From a virus (Duplodnaviria; Heunggongvirae; Uroviricota; Caudoviricetes), in the IMG/VR virus record IMGVR_UViG_3300042922_000286, positions 1-64,000 of that record: a stretch of 64,000 bases of DNA. One strand, 5' to 3'. This document shows, piece after piece, positions 1-47,900 of the stretch. The position numbers were made by a program, and so were the translations under genes. Numbering within the stretch: position 1 is the first letter of the stretch; the number at the start of each line of letters is the position of its first letter. The notes beneath the pieces were generated by a model. That model was not told the origin of the DNA and did not search any database. It worked only from the letters and a program-made list of their open reading frames with translations.

Positions 1-10
1 GGCGGGGGCC

Positions 11-52
11 AAAAGAAAGACGGATAGGGATTAATCCCCTCCGTCTTTTTTG
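11..52. terminator. Bidirectional hairpin terminator at the end of the lysis cassette. Stem AGACGGA..GGGATTAATCCC..TCCGTCT is followed by TTTTTT on plus and preceded by an A-run, which gives the U-tract for the minus transcript.
   Basis: Inverted repeat at 18-46 flanked by an A-run and a T-run. It overlaps the holin stop codon. Confidence 0.5.
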
Positions 53-5750: not shown

Positions 5751-5793
5751 CTTACAATGAACCTATACGGCAGGTACTACCGTTAGTTTAGGG
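5751..5793 (-). promoter_or_regulatory. Conserved bipartite promoter-like element, copy 1 (transcribed strand: CCCTAAACT-N15-CGTATAGGTTCATTGTAAG).
   Basis: Core on plus at 5751-5769 and box AGTTTAG at 5785-5791, with an exact 15-nt spacer. The spacer contains GGTAGTACC. Confidence 0.5.
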
Positions 5794-9951: not shown

Positions 9952-11061
9952 TTAAGCAGCGCCCCTTAGAAGTTGATTAACCTGTTCGTACATCTTCGGT
10001 ACGATATACCCGCCCGCTTGGAAGTCTGCCGCGAGAGCTTCCTTCGTCTTAGGTACACCGTTCCATTTGTATTCTTCTTTTGTCTCAGGGTTAGTAAGCG
10101 CCTCACCCGTCGATGGGTCAATCCACTTCAACCAACCTGCGCCTGTTAGGATGTTCAACTCTTTGGCTACGTGAACCAATTCATTGATAGAGTCAAGCCC
10201 TGTCTCGTAGTACATATCGATAACAGCCACTTTATGGGGAGCCGCCACCTTGTTCTTCGAGATCTTACACTTGATCTGATTACCATGAACGACCTTCGCG
10301 TTACCAGAACCGGTAGAGAAGTAATCACCCTTCGAAACTTCAATGTTGATGGTTGCGGCATGTTTGAGCGATCTACCGCCCGATGTAGTCGTAGGCGTAC
10401 CGTACATCGAGAATCCACCGATCTTGTCGCGAAGCTGATTGATGAAGACGAGCGTAGTTCCCGACTTCGTAAGCAGCCCACTGTTGACGAGCTTACGCAT
10501 AGCCTTCGAGTTGATCTTCGAAGCCCCGCCTACGCGACTCTCCTTGTCCCAATCCTCTTGTTCAAACTCGTCCTTAGGAATCAGCCCGTCAACGGAGTCC
10601 AGCCCGATGATGCTATACTTGCCGCTCTGCAACATAAACTCGATCATCTTGTAAATGTTCTCAGCGTAAGTGTCAGGCTGCGTAATCATCAGGCGCTTCA
10701 AGTCCACCCCGAGCTTCTGCGCCCATATAGGGTCGTAGGAATGTTCGAGATCGATGATGGCGCACATCTTGTCAGGTTCTAACGCCTGAGCCTGTGCTAT
10801 CGCAAGATTCAGGATCGTCGTCTTACCTGAGGATTCTGCGCCATGCAGCCCGATAAGCCGACCGTGGGGAAGCCCTCCACCAAGAGCGATATCAAGCATC
10901 AAGGAGCCTGATGGACGCATCTTGATATTAGCCAACCGTTCCTCTTTACCTAGAATGAACATTGACTGCGGCCCGAACTCCTTACGAATCTCGGCTAGGA
11001 GCTTATCCTGCTCTGTATAGAAGTCGGTAATGTTCGTCTTTTCTTCATTTGCTACCGCCAT
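9952..11061 (-). CDS. recA: RecA-family recombinase.
   Basis: SGSLMLDIALGGGLPHGRLIGLHGAESSGKTT, FINQLRDKIG and the remainder align by eye with RecA over its full length. Confidence 0.8.
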   Translation of the reverse strand: MAVANEEKTNITDFYTEQDKLLAEIRKEFGPQSMFILGKEERLANIKMRPSGSLMLDIALGGGLPHGRLIGLHGAESSGKTTILNLAIAQAQALEPDKMCAIIDLEHSYDPIWAQKLGVDLKRLMITQPDTYAENIYKMIEFMLQSGKYSIIGLDSVDGLIPKDEFEQEDWDKESRVGGASKINSKAMRKLVNSGLLTKSGTTLVFINQLRDKIGGFSMYGTPTTTSGGRSLKHAATINIEVSKGDYFSTGSGNAKVVHGNQIKCKISKNKVAAPHKVAVIDMYYETGLDSINELVHVAKELNILTGAGWLKWIDPSTGEALTNPETKEEYKWNGVPKTKEALAADFQAGGYIVPKMYEQVNQLLRGAA

Positions 11062-14183: not shown

Positions 14184-14227
14184 TTGCTTACACTGAACCT
14201 ATACGCCACGACCTCGGCTCAGTTTAT
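14184..14227 (-). promoter_or_regulatory. Conserved bipartite promoter-like element, copy 2 (ATAAACT-N15-CGTATAGGTTCAGTGTAAGCAA).
   Basis: Core at 14184-14205 and box AGTTTAT at 14221-14227 with a 15-nt spacer. Confidence 0.5.
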
Positions 14228-19780: not shown

Positions 19781-19824
19781 TTGCTTACACTGAACCTATA
19801 CGCGACCAGATCAGACCAGTTAAG
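19781..19824 (-). promoter_or_regulatory. Conserved bipartite promoter-like element, copy 3 (CTTAACT-N15-CGTATAGGTTCAGTGTAAGCAA).
   Basis: Core at 19781-19802 and box AGTTAAG at 19818-19824 with a 15-nt spacer. Confidence 0.5.
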
Positions 19825-21750: not shown

Positions 21751-21795
21751 GCCTTACACTGAACCTATACGACAAGGGTAGGGGTGAGTTTAGGG
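21751..21795 (-). promoter_or_regulatory. Conserved bipartite promoter-like element, copy 4 (CCCTAAACT-N15-CGTATAGGTTCAGTGTAAGGC).
   Basis: Core at 21751-21771 and box AGTTTAG at 21787-21793 with a 15-nt spacer. Confidence 0.5.
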
Positions 21796-22068: not shown

Positions 22069-22632
22069 TCACATCTGGTTATATTTGGACTTGATCTTCG
22101 ACCATATCTGTGACATTCGGGACTTAGTTACACCAATCACCTTGGCGATCTCGACAAACTCGTAACCTTCCACATATAACTGGAAGATTTGCTTCTCCCG
22201 GTCTGTCAGCCCCATATTGTTCATGACATCCATCATGACTTCGGCGTTCTGATAACCGTAGTCAATAGAGCCGACTTGAAGCGTAGATCGCTCGTCACTA
22301 CCGAGCTCACTTGGGTCATAATTAACTACGATCTCGTCAGCATTTACTACCATGAGATTCTTGCCACTTCCGCACTTGCGCAGGCAGTCACGGATCATAT
22401 TCTCGATAACGTGGTCAACGTAAGTGCTCATTCTACTCGTCTCGCTATTGTAGAGATCAAGCGATCGATATACCTTGAAGACAGTTTCTTGTACAACGTC
22501 CTCAGTGTCCATTCCTGCGAAGCGCTTAGAGCCGATCTTCGCCGCAGTGTGTTTTTGCACTTTTTCTAGGAACAGGTCCATGTCGCCCGTAGCGAACAGT
22601 TCGTCATAGGTCATTGTCGTATTCATTGTCAA
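22069..22632 (-). CDS. Small phage-encoded sigma factor (ECF-like/group 4 sigma-70 family).
   Basis: Region 2 (DVVQETVFKVYRSLDLYN...YVDHVIENMIRDCLRK) and a region 4 HTH (REKQIFQLYVEGYEFVEIAKVIGVTKSRMSQIW). Confidence 0.65.
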   Translation of the reverse strand: MTMNTTMTYDELFATGDMDLFLEKVQKHTAAKIGSKRFAGMDTEDVVQETVFKVYRSLDLYNSETSRMSTYVDHVIENMIRDCLRKCGSGKNLMVVNADEIVVNYDPSELGSDERSTLQVGSIDYGYQNAEVMMDVMNNMGLTDREKQIFQLYVEGYEFVEIAKVIGVTKSRMSQIWSKIKSKYNQM

Positions 22633-23908: not shown

Positions 23909-23953
23909 CCCCTACACTAACCATATACGATAGGTACTACCATAAGTTTAGGG
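23909..23953 (-). promoter_or_regulatory. Conserved bipartite promoter-like element, copy 5 (CCCTAAACT-N15-CGTATATGGTTAGTGTAGGGG).
   Basis: Core at 23909-23929 and box AGTTTAG at 23945-23951 with a 15-nt spacer. The spacer contains GGTAGTACC. Confidence 0.45.
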
Positions 23954-29911: not shown

Positions 29912-29955
29912 TTGCTTACACTTGCCCTATACGACCTCCGCGAACATTAGTTAAG
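29912..29955 (-). promoter_or_regulatory. Conserved bipartite promoter-like element, copy 6 (CTTAACT-N15-CGTATAGGGCAAGTGTAAGCAA).
   Basis: Core at 29912-29933 and box AGTTAAG at 29949-29955 with a 15-nt spacer. It lies 25 nt upstream of the initiator gene. Confidence 0.5.
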
Positions 29956-29976: not shown

Positions 29977-30006
29977 TTGACATAGGTAGTACCTGCGTTG
30001 TATGCT
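29977..30006 (+). promoter_or_regulatory. Sigma-A-like promoter for the recombinase gene (TTGACA-N18-TATGCT) with GGTAGTACC in the spacer.
   Basis: TTGACA at 29977-29982, TATGCT at 30001-30006 and the operator-like 9-mer at 29985-29993. Confidence 0.45.
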
Positions 30007-30034
30007 GTGCTCATAATAAATATTATGGGAGGAA
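30005..30034. other. dif-like candidate recombination site (GTGCTCATAA-TAAATA-TTATGGGAGGA) overlapping the recombinase RBS.
   Basis: The left arm matches the E. coli dif XerC arm GTGCGCATAA at 9 of 10 positions. There is a 6-bp AT spacer, and the right arm begins TTATG as in the dif XerD arm. Confidence 0.35.
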
Positions 30035-30040
30035 TCGCCA

Positions 30041-30880
30041 GTGAGCCATATTAAACTGTTCATTGATCATTTGAAGATCGAACGTGAGCTGTCGAACGAA
30101 ACCACATACAACTATGAGAAGGATATCGAGCAGTTCACAGCGTTCGTATGCAAACCTGTTGAGCAGGTAACCACTGATGACATTGTGCGGTTTCTCGCTC
30201 ATCTAAAGGACAAAAGCATGAAGGCATCCACCCGAAACCGTAAGCTATCTGCCCTAAAGACTTTCTTTAAGTACCTTGCAAGGCGAGGGCGTGTTCCATT
30301 CAGCCCCGCCGCGGACATCGAGGGGGCCAAGCAAGACAAGCACCTTCCGAAGCCAATCAATGCTGAAGTGCTCGACCAGTTATTTGAAGCCGTAAATAAC
30401 CTACGCGACAGAACCTTATTGGAAATACTGTACGGCTGCGGGCTGCGTCGTATGGAGTTGGTCAAGATAAGAATATCGGATATTGACTTTACCCAAGGAT
30501 TCATTCGCGTACTAGGGAAGGGTGGCACCGAACGGATCGTCCCTATCCGAGGCATCGCCTTGCAGATTACTAAAGAACTCGCGGCGAAGGCGAGTGGGGA
30601 ATGGTTGTTCGAGGGCGGCAATGGACATCTGTCCGCACGGCAAGCAAACGATATTATAGCTAAATGGAGGGGAGTGGTAGGGGCCAAGTGGATTACTCCG
30701 CACAAGTTTCGCCACTCCTTCGCTACGCACCTGTTGAATAATGGGATGGAGCTAAAGTATGTACAAGAGCTTCTCGGCCACGCCAATCCAGCCACTACAC
30801 AAATCTATACGAAGGTTGACAACAGACGTGTAGCTAACGATTACGAACAGTTTCATCCAAGAGCAAAAAGCGCCCTCTAG
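30041..30880 (+). CDS. xerD: XerC/XerD-family tyrosine recombinase.
   Basis: SAM-like N-terminal domain and a catalytic domain with R...(GLRRMEL)...HSFATHLL...GHANPATTQIYTKV (R-K-H-R-H-Y). GTG start with RBS GGGAGGA. Confidence 0.85.
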   Translation: MSHIKLFIDHLKIERELSNETTYNYEKDIEQFTAFVCKPVEQVTTDDIVRFLAHLKDKSMKASTRNRKLSALKTFFKYLARRGRVPFSPAADIEGAKQDKHLPKPINAEVLDQLFEAVNNLRDRTLLEILYGCGLRRMELVKIRISDIDFTQGFIRVLGKGGTERIVPIRGIALQITKELAAKASGEWLFEGGNGHLSARQANDIIAKWRGVVGAKWITPHKFRHSFATHLLNNGMELKYVQELLGHANPATTQIYTKVDNRRVANDYEQFHPRAKSAL

Positions 30881-30895
30881 GGGCGCTTTTCTGTT
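30865..30895. terminator. Bidirectional terminator between the convergent xerD and repeat-protein genes (AAAAA-GCGCCC-TCTAG-GGGCGC-TTTT).
   Basis: 6-bp GC stem at 30870-30875 and 30881-30886, flanked by an A-run and a T-run. Confidence 0.65.
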
Positions 30896-33800
30896 ACATG
30901 ATGAACGCGTACGGTAGGTCGGTGATGATCTCGATAACACAATCCAAGTCCTTCCTATGCAAGAGACTTAACGAAGACGGCAGGTCGCTGTGAATACGAA
31001 GGGCAATGCTTGAAGGCATATCGTACTCTGACGTGCGCCGTACCCACAGCGTTGAAGACTTATCGTAATAATGCACTTGCTGTACCGTAATGCTACCCGG
31101 GATATCATCCATCAGTCGAAGTTGAATCGAAGATGGCAGGTCTTCATCCCTTACAGCTATAATCCCGACCGTGCCTGTCATCCTGTTAGTAGGGGAAACC
31201 CTGATGACGGACGGTAGGCTTTCATTCCCCCGCGCCACTGTGTACAAGGATGTCGGGATGTCGTAAGCCCCACGAACCCTCGGAATGATGATACCCGGGG
31301 TGTCTTCATTCCCACGGTACTTTACAAAGATGCTACCCTGTAGGGACTCGTACGGCCTTACAAGGATTTCGGAGTTCAAGTCATCCCTATTCAGCACGTA
31401 GATGTTCGACGGTATGTCGCTCGTCTCCGACCTGCGGACCACGATCCGCGACGGCAGCGTTACAAACTGCAACGTATTGATGGCAGACGGAAGATCAGAC
31501 CATTCGCTACGTCTTACTACGATCTGCGAGGGACGCTCGGAGATTTCGGCCCTACGTACTGTGATACTCGACGGCAGGTTGGAGAACCTGACTACATTGA
31601 TCTGCGTAGGCAGATCGGACGTGTCGCGAACCCTTACTACGACCTTACCATTCAGGTCTTTGAAGTTGCTCCGACGAACCGTGATAGTAGAAGGGAGGTC
31701 GCTATGCAGCCTCAGTTGTATTGTAGAAGGGATGCTGTCCACATCGCTGCGCCGTACTATTACCGAACCTTCCATTTCGTAGTCCCCGTAAGCAGGTACA
31801 ACGATACTACAATTCAAGTACTGCGATCTAACTAAGATGGAGCCTTGCAGATCACTCTTTATCCATACGTCCAGTTGGCCCGGGATTTCCTTACGGTAGA
31901 GGACATAAACGTTACTGTCCAGATCGTCTAAATCCGACCGCCGTACGACCAAGCTAGACTCAAGGGTGTAATGCAGCCGCGGCTGGATGGTACCCATAAG
32001 ATTAGGTCTGGAAACTACAATCCCAGCATCGATCTCATTTAACGAATCCCTACGCGCCGTGATGGAACCAGTCAGGTCTTCCCTGAACCGAACATATACA
32101 CTGGACGGTAGGTCAGGCTTCGATACAAAGATCGTGCCATCGATCTTACTCCGATCGCTGTGTCTTACGGTCACGCTGCCCGGGAGGTCAATGTACGGAG
32201 TAACATAGATTCTACCTTTAATAGTAGGATGAGAAACCCACAATCTTGAAGGCATGTTCAGTCTGTCACTTCGCCGTACTGTGATGCTGCCCGCCATATC
32301 AATATATGGCGTTACCCAAATCCTAGATTGCAACTCAGGTCTGGATACAAACAGCGTGGCAGGTATCCTGCTCTCGCTTCTTTTCCTTACCCGTATCAAG
32401 CCGCTAACGTCAACGTACGGCGTTACCCAAATGCTAGAAGGCAGGTATGGTTTAGAGACATTGACTGTACCCGGTAGTTCACCTTCTCCGTTGCGCCTAA
32501 CATCGATGCTGCCCGCCAAGTCCTCGCGGAATCGAACATAGATCGAACAGTCGATTGTCGGATTGGACACGTACAGGCTGGAAGGCATCTCCCACTCGGT
32601 CGATCTTCGAACGGCGATACTACCCGGCCAATCTTTATACGGCGTAACGTAGATACTACCCGGGCGATCTGGTGCGCTAATCGTTCCCCAAGAGAATAGC
32701 TCACTGTACCCTTCGACCCTGACCAAGAAGGAGGAAGGCATATCCGTGTACTTTTTAACAAACAAGGACGAGGGCAGGTCAGGCTTACTAACCATAATCG
32801 TATTGTTTTCAAGGTCGTTGTATCCCGGCTCACGAACAGCGATGGTGGAAGGTAAGTCATTCCATTCTTCTCTTCTTACAGTGATCGAGCCGAGCATGTC
32901 AGGGCGGCTAACTACAATCCGAGAAATGCGTTCTCCCGGCTGCACAATGAACATGCTTGAGGGCATATCATGAGTTGTCCAAAATCCCCTAACTGTCAGC
33001 TTACTGGCCAAGCTCTTGTTGCCTCGAATTACAGCCATAATCCGCGATTCAAGGTTAGCTGTGTCGAAGCTCCAAATCTGAGCATCAAAGTACTCAATAA
33101 CAATCTTAGGCTCAAGACCTGACCTACGCTCTTTCGAGAATACGAACAACGCAGGGTCTTGCTCATTCGTGGCGTTGATGTAGAAGTTAAGTACGGCCTT
33201 TCCATCCCGCCTTGCATCGTTAACGTACGTCGAGAGGTCAAAGGCGATGTACCTGTCGTCCTCATTAACTGTATAGTCTATGCCGACAAGCAAGCCCGGG
33301 CCGGGTTGGTTATCCCACGTTACCCCATTCTCGGTCCAAGAATCGTCCGTCTCCAAAAGACTCAGGCTGATCTCGGGTTTCATGTAGGCGTAGTAGAGGC
33401 GCAGTTCCGCTCTTTTCAGTTCGTAATTAAGCGGTAACTCTAGGAACCTAGAGATGTCGAACCCTGCGAGGATTCTTAGCCTTTCCTCTTTACCTGCCGA
33501 GTAGCCAGTTCCTATGATCTGCTCCCCGCCATAGTTCAGCTTAGGTAGGCCTTCGCGGATAAACGCATCTTTAATCGGCGTGTTAATGTCGGCCAAGACC
33601 GTAGGTTCAACGATATTGATGATGCCTCGCATACGATTTAGCGGAGCTACCCCGATGCTGGAAGGCATGTCGTATGGCCGCTTGGCAATAACGGACATCG
33701 GTATTTCGTTACCCTGCACACCGATAACAAACGAGTCGCCTGTCATTTTGTTTCTGAGCTTGACCCCGATGCGGGATGTCAGATCAGAAGTACCAACGGA

Positions 33801-44920: not shown

Positions 44921-47900
44921 GAAGCGATACGACCGAGGATGAGCCAGATGCGCTTGGCTTTCTTAGGCTCAGGCTTCAAATCAAGAAGTGCCGTATCGTC
45001 TTCATGAACTACGGTGTCGAGTACCTTGTGACGGTCAGCAGCGCTATCCTCGGCCACTACTGTATCAAGAGAAGGTTTGATACGAGTAGCAGGTTCGCTG
45101 CCCCCGACCATGGTATCGGTCGAAGGCTTGAGTCGGTTAGCGCCGTCCGAGGTGCTAGTTTGAAGGTCATTAATTCGCTTCTTACGGGAGCCTTCGGATA
45201 CGTCATCAATAAACTCTCCACCTGAGCTATACGTAGTGGAACCCTCCAAGTTCTCCAAGACGGCTCCATTTTCTACTTGGGTGGTTGCTGCTTCCAATCC
45301 GTCAACAGTAGATTCGCGAGTCACTACAGAATCGGCTCTGTCGGTTCCTTCATCGACTACAACCTCGTTGGCCGTACTGTTGATAGAACCACCTACATAG
45401 TCTATGACAGCATCCGTTCTTTCGCTCGGCTCACTGACCTCAGAAGACTCGTTAATCGAATCTACTACGTGATCATACGTGGCTTTGTCGGGAGACTCGA
45501 TGACGGAATCCTTGACGTTACTGTACGTAGCACCGTCATGTGTTTCAATGGCAGCTTCCCACGTGGCATCGTAGTCAGCCTTGTCGTGCCCTTCCATTTC
45601 AACATCATGGGACAGATCGTAGGTTGCCTTACCTGGCTGCTCAAGAACAACATACTCGCTAAGGCCACTTGCTGCCTTGTCGGGGCTTTCCATGATAACC
45701 TCGGAGCTTGCCCGGGTTTCACTGGTTTCGGGGGTCTCCATCCGAACGTCATACTGTTGATCATAGATCGCTTGGTCGTGACCTTCCATCTCAACAACAC
45801 GCTCAACACGGAGGTCTGCTTCGCTCGGCTGTTCGACAACCCCGCCGCTTCCTCCGTACGCTTCCGTCTGGATGTATTCCTCTATTTCAACATCGCCGCT
45901 GGCTCTTGTCTCAGCAATGCTCTGATCTCCAATGACTGCTTCCGTAGTGAGCCGTTGGTCAGCGGATTCAGCACCATCCAGAACCCCTTCATGCCGATCA
46001 AGACGATCACCCTTAGTTGTCCCATCGTCCTTAATCCCCAACAACTCATTTTTGTACTCTGCCAAGGACTGTCCGCTGTTATCGAGCATGGTTTCAAGCA
46101 GATTCTCCGCGCCCAACATAATCTCTTCCACTACTTGCTTACCGTGGAGTATTTCAGCTAGACGCATGACAGTCATTACCTCAGGTCGGTTGAATACTTC
46201 ATGTACCAATTCGGCCCCGCCCTTGTCGATCTGCTCCACCGTAGCTTCTCCGTCAGAGTAGGAGGTCGCAGCATCGGTATCCTCAATCACAGAGTCCTGC
46301 GCGATTGTGAGCTTGCCATCAGCCACGTCATCGATTACAGAGGTGAACGTTTTGTCGAGTGACCCTTTCTGCTTATCGTCAATATCGATGTCCGTCATTC
46401 CCCCCGCAATACCTTCCACGTAATCTTCGAGATGGACAGCCCCTTGCTCTTGGCTGTACGAAACAGCAGCTACAGATTTATCGACAGATTGGTCTAGGTC
46501 TTTACGGGACTCGAAGCTATCTACTTGTTCATAATGGATTTCGCGCCCTTGAACCGAGGCAGAAGCTTCAACTCCGTCCCCTACTTCGCCCTCTGAACCT
46601 TCGTCGGACAACGCACTGACGGCATCGTCTATGTCAATCTCAACCTGATCCCTACTGATATTAGTAGTGTCCACGGTGTCGTCCACACTGTAGATGGGGT
46701 GTTCTTGGCTGCGATCTGCCGCGGCTCCGTCATCAATGATGGTAAGCCGCTGCTTGGAAACGTCAGCGGTCACTTCATCATCAATTGCAATATCACGCCG
46801 TACGTGGCTCTCTGACCCCTCGGCAGCGTCATCAACAATAACCTGCCTGAATCTGCTTTCGTGCGCCGCCACCTCGTCAGTGATGTCACCACGGTAGTCC
46901 GGTTCAATCCTTCTGGCGTCAGGCTTATCCAGTATATCCCCGATGTTGTAGACCTTCTTTTCAGTGTCGGCAAAGTCGGATATTTCAAGCTGCTTGGTCT
47001 GCTCGGATGCCGCCGCCGTATCCCCGATGGCCAACTCCTTTAGCTTCTCAAATGCCCCTGTCGAATCCGCGATGTCGCCCTTATAGTCAGGTTCTATTCG
47101 CTTAGTTTCAAGAACTTCGTTGTAGACTAATTCTCTTAGTACCTTGGCTGCGTCAAGCATATCGTCGCCATTGCCTTCTACGTCATCTATACGAAGGGAG
47201 GGGTCTACTGCATCATCAACAGCAACTTCCTTGATCCGTTCCCCTGACCCTGCGATTACCTCTGCTGCTTCCCCGTCCCGTATGTCCCTAGTCTTCTTCG
47301 CTTCGTCAACAGGTTCGTCAGTGATTGTATATTCAACCTTCTTTTCAGAAAGTGAAATTTCTATTCCATCAGTGTCTAGCGTGTCCATGCGATTACGAGT
47401 CTTTAGGAACTCTGCGATCTCGATGACGTGATAGCTCGGCTCGGGGCTTGCAGGGGATACTTCGACGGTCTGTGCTTCGGCTACAGGCGCTTGTTTGGCC
47501 GCCGTCAATCTATCCTCTATGTTAATAACATTGGTCTTGTCATTGTTGGATCGCTCCATAGAATCGACACTTGCCAAAGCAGGTTCCACCATAACGGAAC
47601 TGATCTCAGGATCAATATTATATACGTCCCTAAAGTCCGTCTTTAGACGGCTCTCAGTGATCTCCTTTATTGCATTAGCAACGACTCTATCGACGATATT
47701 TGAAGAGTTCAATTGTTGCGCGTTGCCGATGTCCTTTGCCCGCCCTTCTGACTGAATAGCCGCATGGATGTGTCCCACCAGTCTTAAAACTGCGGTGGAA
47801 GGGATCATTCCCTCAGGCTCATGGGCATACACATCACTTAACGTCCCTTCTTCCAGAAGTTTGCCGAACACCCCGACAACGGTTGAACATCTCACCCCCA

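What the first reader, a model, noticed from the sequence alone, without database searches (positions are those of the whole stretch)
29977..30880. Lone plus-strand XerC/D-type recombinase with its own promoter and a dif-like site overlapping its RBS, wedged between the replication and tail modules
This is the only plus-strand gene in 64 kb, and it is insulated by a bidirectional terminator at 30865-30895. Immediately upstream of the GTG start, the sequence GTGCTCATAA-TAAATA-TTATGGGAGGA (30005-30034) has a dif-like layout: an 11-bp arm, a 6-bp AT spacer and a TTATG arm, with 9 of 10 matches to the E. coli dif XerC arm. No repressor/Cro pair or attP-like flank is visible. That favours a role in dimer resolution, such as a phage-plasmid lifestyle or concatemer resolution, or Xer-mediated integration at the host dif site (as in CTX-type IMEX elements), rather than a classical lambda-type integrase.
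Basis: partly seen in the sequence, partly recalled or inferred. Interest (0 to 1): 0.65.

Follow-up and report, generated by a model that had tools for sequence, protein, structure and literature searches.

The report
Self-regulated Xer recombinase of phage-plasmid
This is a stand-alone gene for a Xer-type DNA recombinase in a large Jenst-like phage that carries plasmid-partition genes; the "dif-like" palindrome on its own promoter is most likely the enzyme's binding site, and the enzyme most likely manages the circular phage genome rather than inserting it into the host chromosome, which is a known arrangement, not a new kind of system.

Summary
Window 30041-30880 (+) encodes a 279-aa Xer-family tyrosine recombinase with all catalytic residues. 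It has its own sigma-A-type promoter (29977-30006), a bidirectional terminator (30866-30890) and a CATAA-N6-TTATG palindrome (30006-30033) between the -10 box and the RBS. The cassette sits at the same place in about 13 related 100-125 kb Firmicutes phages. The exact palindrome recurs in 3 independent lineages, with invariant arms and variable spacers.

The same contig, just outside the window, carries a ParM/ParR partition locus with centromere-like iterons. An integrated Brevibacillus laterosporus relative has a large serine recombinase at the prophage end, with the Xer gene about 30 kb inside. So the Xer enzyme is not the integrase there.

In the published relatives Jenst and EZ-2018a, two 11-bp half-sites bracket the recombinase promoter. 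They match the arms of a remote canonical 11-7-11 site, which lies in the terminal repeat in Jenst, and they co-vary with those arms between the two phages.

Best reading: an autoregulated Xer-type module that cyclises and/or resolves the genome of a phage-plasmid. The palindrome is a recombinase-binding operator that may also be a crossover site. Integration at host dif is not supported. This is a new member of a known kind, of moderate interest.

The parts
29928..29952 (-). Neighbouring divergent promoter of phage ECF-sigma type (AACT-N15-CGTATA) for the replication operon (initiator, DnaC-like, HNH, DnaB). It shares the 154-bp intergenic region with the recombinase promoter.
   Evidence: 7 matches to AAC-N16-CGTATA, all on the - strand, against 0.39 expected. 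Its reverse complement (TATACGA and GTTAA) is invariant in the relatives' alignments.
29977..30006 (+). Sigma-A-type promoter of the recombinase gene (TTGACA, 18-bp spacer, TATGCT).
   Evidence: 10/12 matches. The -35 box is TTGACA in 11 of 13 loci and TTTACA/TTGAAA in the other two, and -10-like hexamers are kept in the relatives.
29984..29994 (.). Palindrome AGGTAGTACCT inside the promoter spacer. It is a candidate operator for an unidentified phage regulator and is shared with three other promoter or leader regions, including the parM leader.
   Evidence: GGTAnTACC occurs 5 times in 73.7 kb against about 1 expected, 4 of them in promoter/leader regions. It is conserved in L003, L004 and L005.
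30006..30033 (.). dif-like 28-bp site: left arm TGTGCTCATAA (30006-30016), spacer TAAATA (30017-30022), right arm TTATGGGAGGA (30023-30033). It covers the expected transcription start and the RBS. Proposed recombinase-binding operator and possible crossover site.
   Evidence: The half-site consensus TTATG[A/T/G]G is shared across the family. Arm-to-promoter covariation is seen in Jenst and EZ-2018a. The left arm matches a Jenst core arm at 9/11.
30028..30033 (+). Shine-Dalgarno sequence GGGAGG, 7 nt before the GTG start; it overlaps the right arm.
   Evidence: Read directly from the sequence; conserved in relatives.
30041..30880 (+). Xer-family tyrosine recombinase CDS, 279 aa, with a SAM-like core-binding domain and a catalytic domain. 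R136, K160, H221, R224, H247 and Y256 are invariant in 13 homologues.
30866..30890 (.). Bidirectional intrinsic terminator shared with the convergent 1230-aa CBM96 tail-fibre gene (30894-34586, -). The recombinase stop codon lies in the loop.
   Evidence: (I12). An equivalent hairpin follows the gene in 10 of the 12 relatives scanned; in L002 and L147 further + strand coding sequence follows directly.

Best explanation
The cassette is a self-contained, autoregulated Xer-type site-specific recombination module of a Jenst-like phage that can persist as a plasmid prophage.

Proposed mechanism:
- Host sigma-A RNA polymerase transcribes the gene from TTGACA-18-TATGCT.
- The recombinase binds the two inverted 11-bp arms (TGTGCTCATAA / TTATGGGAGGA) that lie over the transcription start and RBS, and so limits its own synthesis.
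- Its recombination job is to manage the circular form of the genome. It would resolve multimers made by the phage's own RecA/RuvC so that the ParM/ParR system can segregate monomers. Where the site lies in terminal repeats, as in Jenst, it would also cyclise the injected linear DNA, as Cre-loxP does.
- It is not the integrase.
- The leader palindrome has canonical Xer geometry (inverted arms, 6-bp asymmetric spacer). It may therefore be a crossover site itself, as in difSL-xerS. Alternatively, a separate core site may lie in the roughly 25 kb of the contig that I could not read.

Shown: gene, domains and catalytic residues; promoter and terminator; conserved synteny; conservation pattern of the site; ParM locus on the same contig; serine integrase in the integrated relative; arm covariation in Jenst and EZ-2018a.

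Inferred: binding, autoregulation, resolution/cyclisation, plasmid state.
For: - Xer-family identity: Pfam. NCBIfam XerC 259 and XerD 241 bits, XerA/'integron integrase' model 226 against a cutoff of 220. Best solved structures are P. abyssi XerA and E. coli XerD. Catalytic R-K-H-R-H-Y is invariant.
- Conserved, insulated cassette between the last tail-fibre gene and the replication initiator in L002-L006 and L146-L152. It is cleanly absent from a decaying chromosomal copy, L010.
- Plasmid hallmarks on the same contig: a 358-aa ALP_N/MreB-like_C ParM (53.6 and 45.4 bits, both above cutoff) followed by an 86-aa partner, about 20 iterons of 10-bp period upstream, and an HTH_36 protein. JGI names the protein ParM. 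Homologues of 43-47% identity lie on two Paenibacillus plasmid records of 128-137 kb, of which pPLP3 is recorded as circular.
- No serine integrase in the 74 kb searched by tblastn (window plus L196), and the gene calls for a further 3 kb show no integrase; 77 kb were read in all.
- Not the integrase in the B. laterosporus DSM 25 prophage: its end reads sigma, a 59-aa gene, a 503-aa large serine recombinase, then host ytfJ and pyruvate carboxylase. The Xer gene is 41 genes and about 30 kb inside, with unchanged neighbours.
- Site: arms invariant and spacers variable in 3 lineages. It is the only copy in 77 kb.
- Covariation in published relatives. Jenst core TGGTCACATAA-N7-TTATGAGACCA lies in both 359-bp terminal repeats, against promoter half-sites AGGTCACATAA and TTATGATAACA. 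EZ-2018a core ATTTAACATAA-N7-TTATGTTAAAT (11/11) lies at the syntenic place, against promoter half-sites TTTTAACATAA and TTATGTTAAAT.
- Literature: Xer-like recombinases are typical of plasmid prophages (PMC8026635). The difSL-xerS module has the same architecture, and autoregulation was proposed for it (PMC1914069).
Against: - No experiment shows binding, recombination or a plasmid state.
- The half-site geometry at the promoter is not constant in the family: inverted with a 6-bp gap (window, L003/4, L149); direct with a 15-bp period (L146, L148, L151); inverted with a 17-bp gap around the -10 box (Jenst, EZ-2018a); absent in L002 and L147. This fits an operator better than a conserved crossover site.
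- In Jenst and EZ-2018a the canonical site is remote and has a 7-bp spacer, not 6.
- The right arm coincides with the RBS, so part of its conservation is explained by translation.
- Integrated relatives keep the module although they need no plasmid resolution, so the function may lie in the lytic cycle.
- About 25 kb of the 102-kb contig, and probably more of the genome, was not visible.
Confidence: 0.55

Rival explanations
1. Operator only. The palindrome is just an autoregulatory (or other repressor's) binding site. The real crossover site of this phage lies elsewhere, probably near the genome ends as in Jenst, and no recombination happens at 30006-30033.
For: The canonical 11-7-11 sites of Jenst and EZ-2018a are remote, while their promoter copies are split half-sites. 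Promoter geometry varies within the family. At least 25 kb of the contig is unseen.
Against: Inverted arms with an asymmetric 6-bp spacer are exactly the substrate geometry of Xer enzymes. The left arm matches the Jenst core arm at 9/11. No second site exists in the 77 kb read. The difSL-xerS precedent combines both roles (PMC1914069).
Confidence: 0.3
2. Integrase. The enzyme integrates the phage into the host chromosome, with the palindrome as a simple attP core, possibly targeting the host dif site or a dif-like site.
For: The gene sits between the late and early modules, where lysogeny modules often lie. The inner 16 bp resemble Firmicutes dif (14/16 to the predicted B. brevis dif). Relatives of the family occur in chromosomes.
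Against: In the integrated B. laterosporus prophage the tail-fibre gene, Xer gene and initiator stay contiguous about 30 kb from the end, and a large serine recombinase sits at the junction. The chromosomal copy L010 lacks the Xer cassette altogether. The spacers differ among relatives, although host dif spacers are conserved. The outer arms do not match dif (16/28). A ParM/ParR locus is present.
Confidence: 0.07
3. The half-sites are bound by another phage protein rather than by the recombinase, for example the ParR-like adaptor, whose iterons (G/T)TCATAA(C/T) resemble the left arm cTCATAAt. This would couple recombinase expression to partition.
For: The window contig's parC-like iterons include GTCATAAT and TTCATAAT. 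The AGGTAnTACC operator is shared by the recombinase promoter and the parM leader.
Against: Jenst's iterons are TCACCT and those of L209 and L198 differ again. Yet the CATAA/TTATG half-sites at the recombinase promoter persist and co-vary with the remote Xer-type core arms. The integrated B. laterosporus prophage also keeps TTATGAGCGAT repeats.
Confidence: 0.05
4. DNA invertase or shufflon-type switch acting on the adjacent tail-fibre gene to vary host range.
For: The gene abuts the 3' end of a repetitive 1230-aa CBM96 fibre gene.
Against: Only one site is present. No inverted second copy occurs in or around the fibre genes. The synteny is with the gene boundary, not with any invertible segment. 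In L002 two other genes lie between the recombinase and the fibre gene.
Confidence: 0.03

Closest known systems
XerD-like 'integrase' of Brevibacillus phage Jenst / SecTim467 and Bacillus phage EZ-2018a (Jenstvirus)
   Same: The recombinase is 35% identical to Jenst's over 99% of the query; EZ-2018a's is about 32% identical to the window's and 41% to Jenst's. In Jenst the gene is likewise convergent with the last large tail gene. Jenst shares the overall gene order: TMP, structural proteins, RCC1-like proteins, fibre, Xer gene; then initiator, DnaC-like, DnaB, primase, sigma and PolA. Jenst also has ParM-type partition with iterons. CATAA/TTATG half-sites lie on the recombinase promoter.
   Different: Proteins are only 25-35% identical and there is no DNA similarity. 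In Jenst the gene faces the lysis genes, not the replication initiator. Jenst-type promoter half-sites are 17 bp apart around the -10 box, against 6 bp apart downstream of it here. Jenst and EZ-2018a have a separate 11-7-11 core site in or near the terminal repeat, and none is seen in the 77 kb read here.
XerS/difSL module of streptococci and lactococci (PMC1914069; PMC5357621)
   Same: A single Xer-type recombinase, a site immediately upstream of its ORF, its own terminator, and behaviour as an independent module. Autoregulation through the site was proposed for XerS.
   Different: The NCBIfam XerS model is far below cutoff (94 against 267 bits). difSL is 31 bp with an 11-bp centre. XerS is chromosomal, lies at the terminus and depends on FtsK. 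Here the module is on a phage.
P1 Cre-loxP and Xer-like recombinases of plasmid prophages (c-st, phiCD38-2, vB_BtS_B83, B. cereus group plasmid prophages; PMC8026635)
   Same: A tailed phage with a ParM/ParR-type partition system plus one simple tyrosine recombinase, thought to resolve dimers. The Jenst site in the terminal repeat mirrors Cre-lox cyclisation of terminally redundant DNA.
   Different: There is no sequence relationship to Cre. Function has not been tested here. Some members of this family integrate through a serine recombinase instead and still keep the Xer gene.
Chromosomal XerC/XerD-dif and IMEX elements (CTX-phi, VGJ-phi, TLC-phi)
   Same: The same fold and catalytic residues, and the same inner core CATAA-N6-TTATG. 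The left arm matches the E. coli XerC arm at 9/11.
   Different: The scores are below the XerC and XerD equivalog cutoffs. It is one enzyme, not a pair. IMEX elements encode no recombinase and integrate at dif, and neither holds here.

Membership tests
Xer-type (simple two-domain) tyrosine recombinases | N-terminal SAM-like core-binding domain plus C-terminal catalytic domain, with no extra arm-binding domain | tested here: met
   Pfam PF02899 covers residues 4-83 and PF00589 covers 107-261 of 279 aa. The alignments to XerA and XerD span the whole length.
Xer-type (simple two-domain) tyrosine recombinases | Catalytic R-K-H-R-H/W-Y set | tested here: met
   R136, K160, H221, R224, H247 and Y256 are invariant in 13 family members and align with XerD and XerA.
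Chromosomal XerC or XerD orthologues | Score above the NCBIfam equivalog cutoffs (TIGR02224 335 bits; TIGR02225 330 bits) | tested here: not met
   259.5 and 240.7 bits. Only NF040815 (XerA / 'site-specific tyrosine recombinase/integron integrase') passes, at 226 against 220.
Single-recombinase Xer modules (XerS/difSL type) | Recombination site immediately adjacent to the recombinase gene, forming one module | tested here: inconclusive
   A dif-like palindrome lies 8-35 bp upstream of the start and is conserved in 3 lineages. Recombination at it is untested, and Jenst-type relatives keep their canonical site elsewhere.
Single-recombinase Xer modules (XerS/difSL type) | XerS orthology | tested here: not met
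   NF003462 scores 94 bits against a cutoff of 267.
Phage-plasmids (plasmid prophages) | Plasmid partition system on the phage genome | tested here: met
   ParM (ALP_N and MreB-like_C, both above cutoff), an 86-aa partner and iterons of 10-bp period lie on the same contig, about 1.8-3.2 kb left of the window start. Homologues occur on Paenibacillus plasmids.
Phage-plasmids (plasmid prophages) | Extrachromosomal maintenance in lysogens | not testable with these tools
   Only indirect evidence is available. No host genes or integrase appear in 77 kb of the 102-kb contig. The related Moorella element is a stand-alone 103-kb contig.
IMEX (integrative elements exploiting Xer) | No recombinase of its own; a dif-like attP used by host XerCD; found integrated at host dif | tested here: not met
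   The phage encodes its own recombinase. The site matches Bacillales dif at 16/28 with non-matching outer arms. The one junction seen lies next to a serine recombinase and ytfJ.
Lambda-type phage integrases | Arm-type binding domain, attP with arm sites, and the gene at the prophage end next to att | tested here: not met
   There is no extra N-terminal domain. No repeated arm-type sites flank the gene. The gene is about 30 kb inside the integrated B. laterosporus prophage.

The most novel reading that the evidence does not exclude
In this branch of Jenst-like phages the recombination site may have moved from the terminal repeat onto the recombinase's own transcription start. That would create a fused operator and resolution site, a phage counterpart of difSL-xerS. 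Because the module is also kept by relatives that integrate through a serine recombinase, the Xer enzyme may serve a general lytic-cycle function rather than only plasmid maintenance. Candidate functions are cyclising DTR genomes or resolving replication dimers made by phage RecA/RuvC.
Probability: 0.25. Interest if true: 0.55.

Novelty: new member of a known kind. Interest (0 to 1): 0.4.

Why it matters
The result turns an 'orphan integrase' annotation in a poorly studied group of 100-125 kb Firmicutes phages (Jenstvirus and relatives) into a testable model. These phages appear to switch between two lysogeny modes, ParM-partitioned plasmid or serine-integrase prophage, while keeping one autoregulated Xer-type recombinase. 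The comparison also gives concrete candidate recombination sites: 28-29 bp sequences in this phage, in Jenst (inside the terminal repeats) and in EZ-2018a. Those sites could be tested directly and might yield compact new recombinase/site pairs for Gram-positive genetics. Jenst was not judged temperate when it was described (PMC4909266). Its rep initiator, ParM locus and Xer site argue that it may be a phage-plasmid.

Tried and rejected
- Near-identity DNA search against INPHARED phages found no match.
- I scanned viral and metagenome contigs for the promoter string TTGACAYAGGTANTACCT. It gave 15 and at least 120 hits, none next to a related recombinase. This spent the only metagenome scan.
- Two contig look-ups failed because I chose the wrong start codons.
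- RNA-hairpin reading of the palindrome: the leader folds no better than shuffles (z -0.04). Rejected.
- Invertase reading: no second or inverted copy of the site, and no significant inverted repeats around the fibre genes. Rejected.
- ParR-iteron reading: iterons differ between phages while the half-sites persist. Largely rejected.
- The half-site TTATG[ATG]G[CA] alone is not enriched genome-wide: 12 copies against 13.9 expected. Only paired copies are informative.
- A search for any 11-N6-8-11 palindrome in the readable 77 kb gave only terminator-like GC-rich hairpins.
- IMG/VR provirus lengths proved unreliable as prophage boundaries. One ends exactly at the stop codon of the serine recombinase; another ends about 4.5 kb short of that, before the TMP-kinase-to-sigma genes.
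- I could not reach contig positions 1-5264 and 82104-102453 of SRR35179700_36577.
Full report
**1. What is there**

Window 30041-30880 (+) is a 279-aa ORF with a GTG start. It carries a SAM-like core-binding domain and a tyrosine-recombinase catalytic domain (Pfam PF02899 E 8e-21, PF00589 E 1e-40).

NCBIfam places it close to XerC and XerD but below their ortholog cutoffs: 259 against 335 bits and 241 against 330 bits. It is just above the cutoff of the XerA / 'site-specific tyrosine recombinase/integron integrase' model, at 226 against 220. The nearest solved structures are Pyrococcus XerA (4a8e) and E. coli XerD (1a0p).

The catalytic R136, K160, H221, R224, H247 and Y256 are invariant in 13 homologues. 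There is no extra N-terminal arm-binding domain.

- Promoter: TTGACA-18-TATGCT at 29977-30006.
- RBS: GGGAGG at 30028-30033.
- Terminator: a perfect 10-bp G+C-rich hairpin at 30866-30890 that folds well on both strands (dG -19.7, z -4.1; dG -17.2, z -3.3) and has U-runs on both sides. It serves both this gene and the convergent 1230-aa CBM96 tail-fibre gene.
- Strand: in the window, every other + strand ORF of 90 aa or more is nested in a longer - strand ORF.

**2. The dif-like site**

The site spans 30006-30033: TGTGCTCATAA-TAAATA-TTATGGGAGGA. The left arm matches the E. coli XerC arm at 9/11.

Agreement with Bacillales dif is confined to the inner 16 bp. The whole site matches B. subtilis dif and the predicted Brevibacillus brevis dif (PMC3025954 supplement) at 16/28.

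On its own the CATAA-N6-TTATG core is not beyond chance in 64 kb. The leader RNA also folds no better than shuffled sequence (z -0.04). Comparison with relatives is what gives the site weight.

**3. A conserved cassette in a phage family**

The window comes from a 102,453-bp Logan contig. No known phage is similar at the DNA level.

Protein searches and contig look-ups recovered 12 related loci: L002-L006 and L146-L152. They come from 100-125 kb contigs or prophages of Brevibacillus, Paenibacillus, Moorella, Anaerovirgula and metagenomes. Recombinase identity to the window's ranges from 33 to 54%.

Wherever enough flanking sequence is available (L002-L004 and the three isolate prophages L146-L148), the gene sits in the same slot: divergent from the replication initiator/DnaC-like/DnaB operon and facing the last tail-fibre gene. 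All twelve have their own sigma-A-like promoter, and ten have their own terminator; in L002 and L147 further + strand coding sequence follows directly.

The shared intergenic region also holds a phage-type promoter for the replication operon on the other strand (AACT-N15-CGTATA at 29952-29928). That motif occurs 7 times in the window, always on the - strand, against 0.39 expected.

**4. Conservation of the site**

- An exact CATAA-N6-TTATG lies 27-29 bp before the start codon in the window, L003, L004 and L149. These represent three independent lineages.
- The ten arm positions are invariant, while the spacers differ: TAAATA, AATTAA, ATTTAA, TATAAA.
- In each case it is the only such site in the sequence available.
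- No such site (up to 1 mismatch, -150 to +30) precedes any of the 38 non-family Xer-like genes among the 45 viral-contig loci checked; the only match there is the family member L149 itself.
- Other family members carry the same half-site, TTATG[A/T/G]G[C/A], in other arrangements. L146, L148 and L151 have two direct copies with a 15-bp period. L005, L006, L150 and L152 have single or degenerate copies. L002 and L147 have none.

A conserved half-site in a variable arrangement suggests a protein-binding operator.

**5. Who binds it: evidence from Jenst and EZ-2018a**

The closest described phages are Brevibacillus phage Jenst (and SecTim467) and Bacillus phage EZ-2018a, all Jenstvirus. Their recombinases are 32-35% identical to the window's and their initiators about 26%. 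Jenst has the same overall gene order.

In both phages the recombinase promoter is bracketed by inverted half-sites 17 bp apart around the -10 box. Each genome also holds one canonical Xer/lox-type site elsewhere.

| Phage | Remote core site | Promoter half-sites (match to core arm) |
|---|---|---|
| Jenst | TGGTCACATAA-tgctgta-TTATGAGACCA, in both copies of the 359-bp terminal repeat | AGGTCACATAA (10/11); TTATGATAACA (9/11) |
| EZ-2018a | ATTTAACATAA-tatacta-TTATGTTAAAT, arms 11/11, unique in the genome, at the syntenic position between the gp021-like gene and the terminase | TTTTAACATAA (10/11); TTATGTTAAAT (11/11) |

The outer six bases of the arms differ between the two phages (GGTCAC against TTTAAC). 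Within each phage they match between promoter and core site. This covariation is the strongest available evidence that one protein reads both the promoter half-sites and the core site. The recombinase is the obvious candidate.

The window's left arm matches a Jenst core arm at 9/11 and its right arm at 8/11.

The ParR-type adaptor is an unlikely binder. Partition iterons differ between phages (TCATAAC here, TCACCT in Jenst, others in L209 and L198), while the CATAA/TTATG half-sites persist.

**6. Lifestyle and role**

Just outside the window's left end, the same contig carries the following, in order:
- the holin and a terminator;
- an 830-bp intergenic region;
- an HTH_36 protein;
- a ParM-type actin-like ATPase (ALP_N 53.6 bits, MreB-like_C 45.4 bits, both above cutoff) with an 86-aa partner;
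- about 20 iterons of 10-bp period upstream of parM.

JGI names the protein ParM. Its best plasmid-database homologues lie on two Paenibacillus plasmid records of 128-137 kb; pPLP3, the one I inspected, is circular and phage-like. Jenst has the same trio: a rep initiator (gp004), a 'partition protein' (gp006, 32% identical) and iterons.

No integrase other than the Xer gene is present in the sequence I could read: tblastn found no serine integrase in 74 kb, and the gene calls for a further 3 kb show none.

The B. laterosporus DSM 25 relative, by contrast, is integrated in the chromosome. Its end reads late sigma factor, a 59-aa gene, a 503-aa large serine recombinase, then host ytfJ, pyruvate carboxylase and so on. 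The Xer gene lies 41 genes (about 30 kb) inside, with the usual neighbours. A second chromosomal copy (Paenibacillus sp. D2_2, L010) has lost the Xer cassette cleanly and has a frameshifted initiator.

The Xer enzyme is therefore not the integrase of this family. The family uses either a ParM plasmid mode or a serine integrase for lysogeny.

**7. Most likely mechanism**

The recombinase is made from a host-type promoter and binds its arms over its own transcription start. That binding would give autoregulation, as was proposed for difSL-xerS (PMC1914069).

It would recombine directly repeated copies of its core site. This would cyclise terminally repetitive DNA, as the position of the Jenst site suggests, and would resolve multimers generated by the phage's RecA and RuvC, so that ParM can segregate monomers. 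This is the role generally assumed for Xer-like enzymes of plasmid prophages (PMC8026635).

In the window's phage the promoter-proximal arms have canonical Xer geometry, so they may also be the crossover site. Alternatively, a Jenst-like core may lie in the unseen part of the genome.

My estimates are:
- about 0.75 that the recombinase binds the palindrome;
- about 0.3 that the palindrome is the main crossover site;
- about 0.07 that the enzyme integrates the phage at this site.

**8. Verdict**

The dif-integration alternative is not.

This kind of system is already known: Xer-like recombinases in plasmid prophages, and site-adjacent single-Xer modules. The finding is therefore a new member of a known kind.

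Three points add some interest. The cassette has a conserved, insulated position. The arms covary between promoter and core site. The module also coexists with a serine integrase in integrated relatives.

Noticed in passing
window 5764-5788, 14200-14224, 19797-19821, 21766-21790, 23924-23948, 29928-29952, 45228-45252 (all - strand): A phage-specific promoter-like motif, AACT-N15-CGTATA (ECF-sigma type, like B. subtilis SigW TGAAAC-N16-CGTATA), occurs 7 times against 0.39 expected. Six copies lie upstream of early or middle operons. The phage's own ECF-like sigma factor (22069-22632) presumably reads it.
   Followed up: partly
window 5773, 23933, 29985, 57511; and about 2.9 kb left of window position 1 (L196 ~13885, parM leader): The palindrome GGTA(G/C)TACC occurs 5 times in 73.7 kb against about 1 expected. 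Four copies lie in promoter or leader regions: two ECF-type promoters, the recombinase promoter and the parM leader. It is a candidate operator of an unidentified global phage regulator, which would link recombinase and partition gene control.
   Followed up: partly
L196 12526-14177 (same contig, about 1.5-3.2 kb left of the window start): A ParM-type actin-like segregation ATPase (358 aa) with an 86-aa partner and about 20 iterons of 10-bp period, (G/T)TCATAA(C/T). It is flanked by an HTH_36 protein that may be a plasmid-mode replication initiator.
   Followed up: yes
L206 11124-13221 (B. laterosporus DSM 25, KB894295.1): The integrated relative ends with a 503-aa large serine recombinase directly next to a Spore_YtfJ gene. 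That gene is 128 aa in one assembly and 78 aa in another. The prophage may interrupt a sporulation gene, as SPbeta and skin do.
   Followed up: no
NC_028805.1 260-288 and 126242-126270; CP027117.1 70914-70942: Canonical 11-7-11 Xer/lox-type sites lie in Jenst (inside both 359-bp terminal repeats) and in EZ-2018a (perfect arms, one of which equals the E. coli XerD arm TTATGTTAAAT). I did not find them mentioned in the Jenst description (PMC4909266, term search). They suggest recombinase-driven cyclisation.
   Followed up: partly
L010 9835-9990 (Paenibacillus sp. D2_2 chromosome NZ_CP133605.1): The synteny is the same, but the recombinase cassette (promoter plus ORF) is replaced by about 90 bp of unrelated sequence in front of the retained terminator. 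The replication initiator is frameshifted. This is a decaying chromosomal copy.
   Followed up: partly
window 1-12 (= L196 ~11010-11024): A homopolymer run (C13 on the other strand) lies at the very start of the window. The window and the Logan contig differ at 2 positions within it. This may be sequencing or assembly noise in the 830-bp intergenic region after the holin terminator.
   Followed up: no
window 30894-34586 (-): The 1230-aa tail-fibre-like protein has a CBM96 domain and dozens of degenerate repeats of about 20 aa (…PSSI.VRR…). The proteins upstream carry RCC1/WD40-like and Gly-rich domains, as in Jenst.
   Followed up: no
L206 7338-7553 (B. laterosporus prophage): A 71-aa protein matches Pfam Acb2_Tad1_hairpin, an anti-CBASS/Thoeris sponge family. 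It lies between the dUTPase and thymidylate-kinase genes of the relative.
   Followed up: no
L196 11555-11590 (about 540-570 bp left of the window start): A promoter-like TTGACA-18-TAGAGT lies upstream of the HTH_36 gene. Its spacer contains a single recombinase-type half-site, ATTATGTGC.
   Followed up: no
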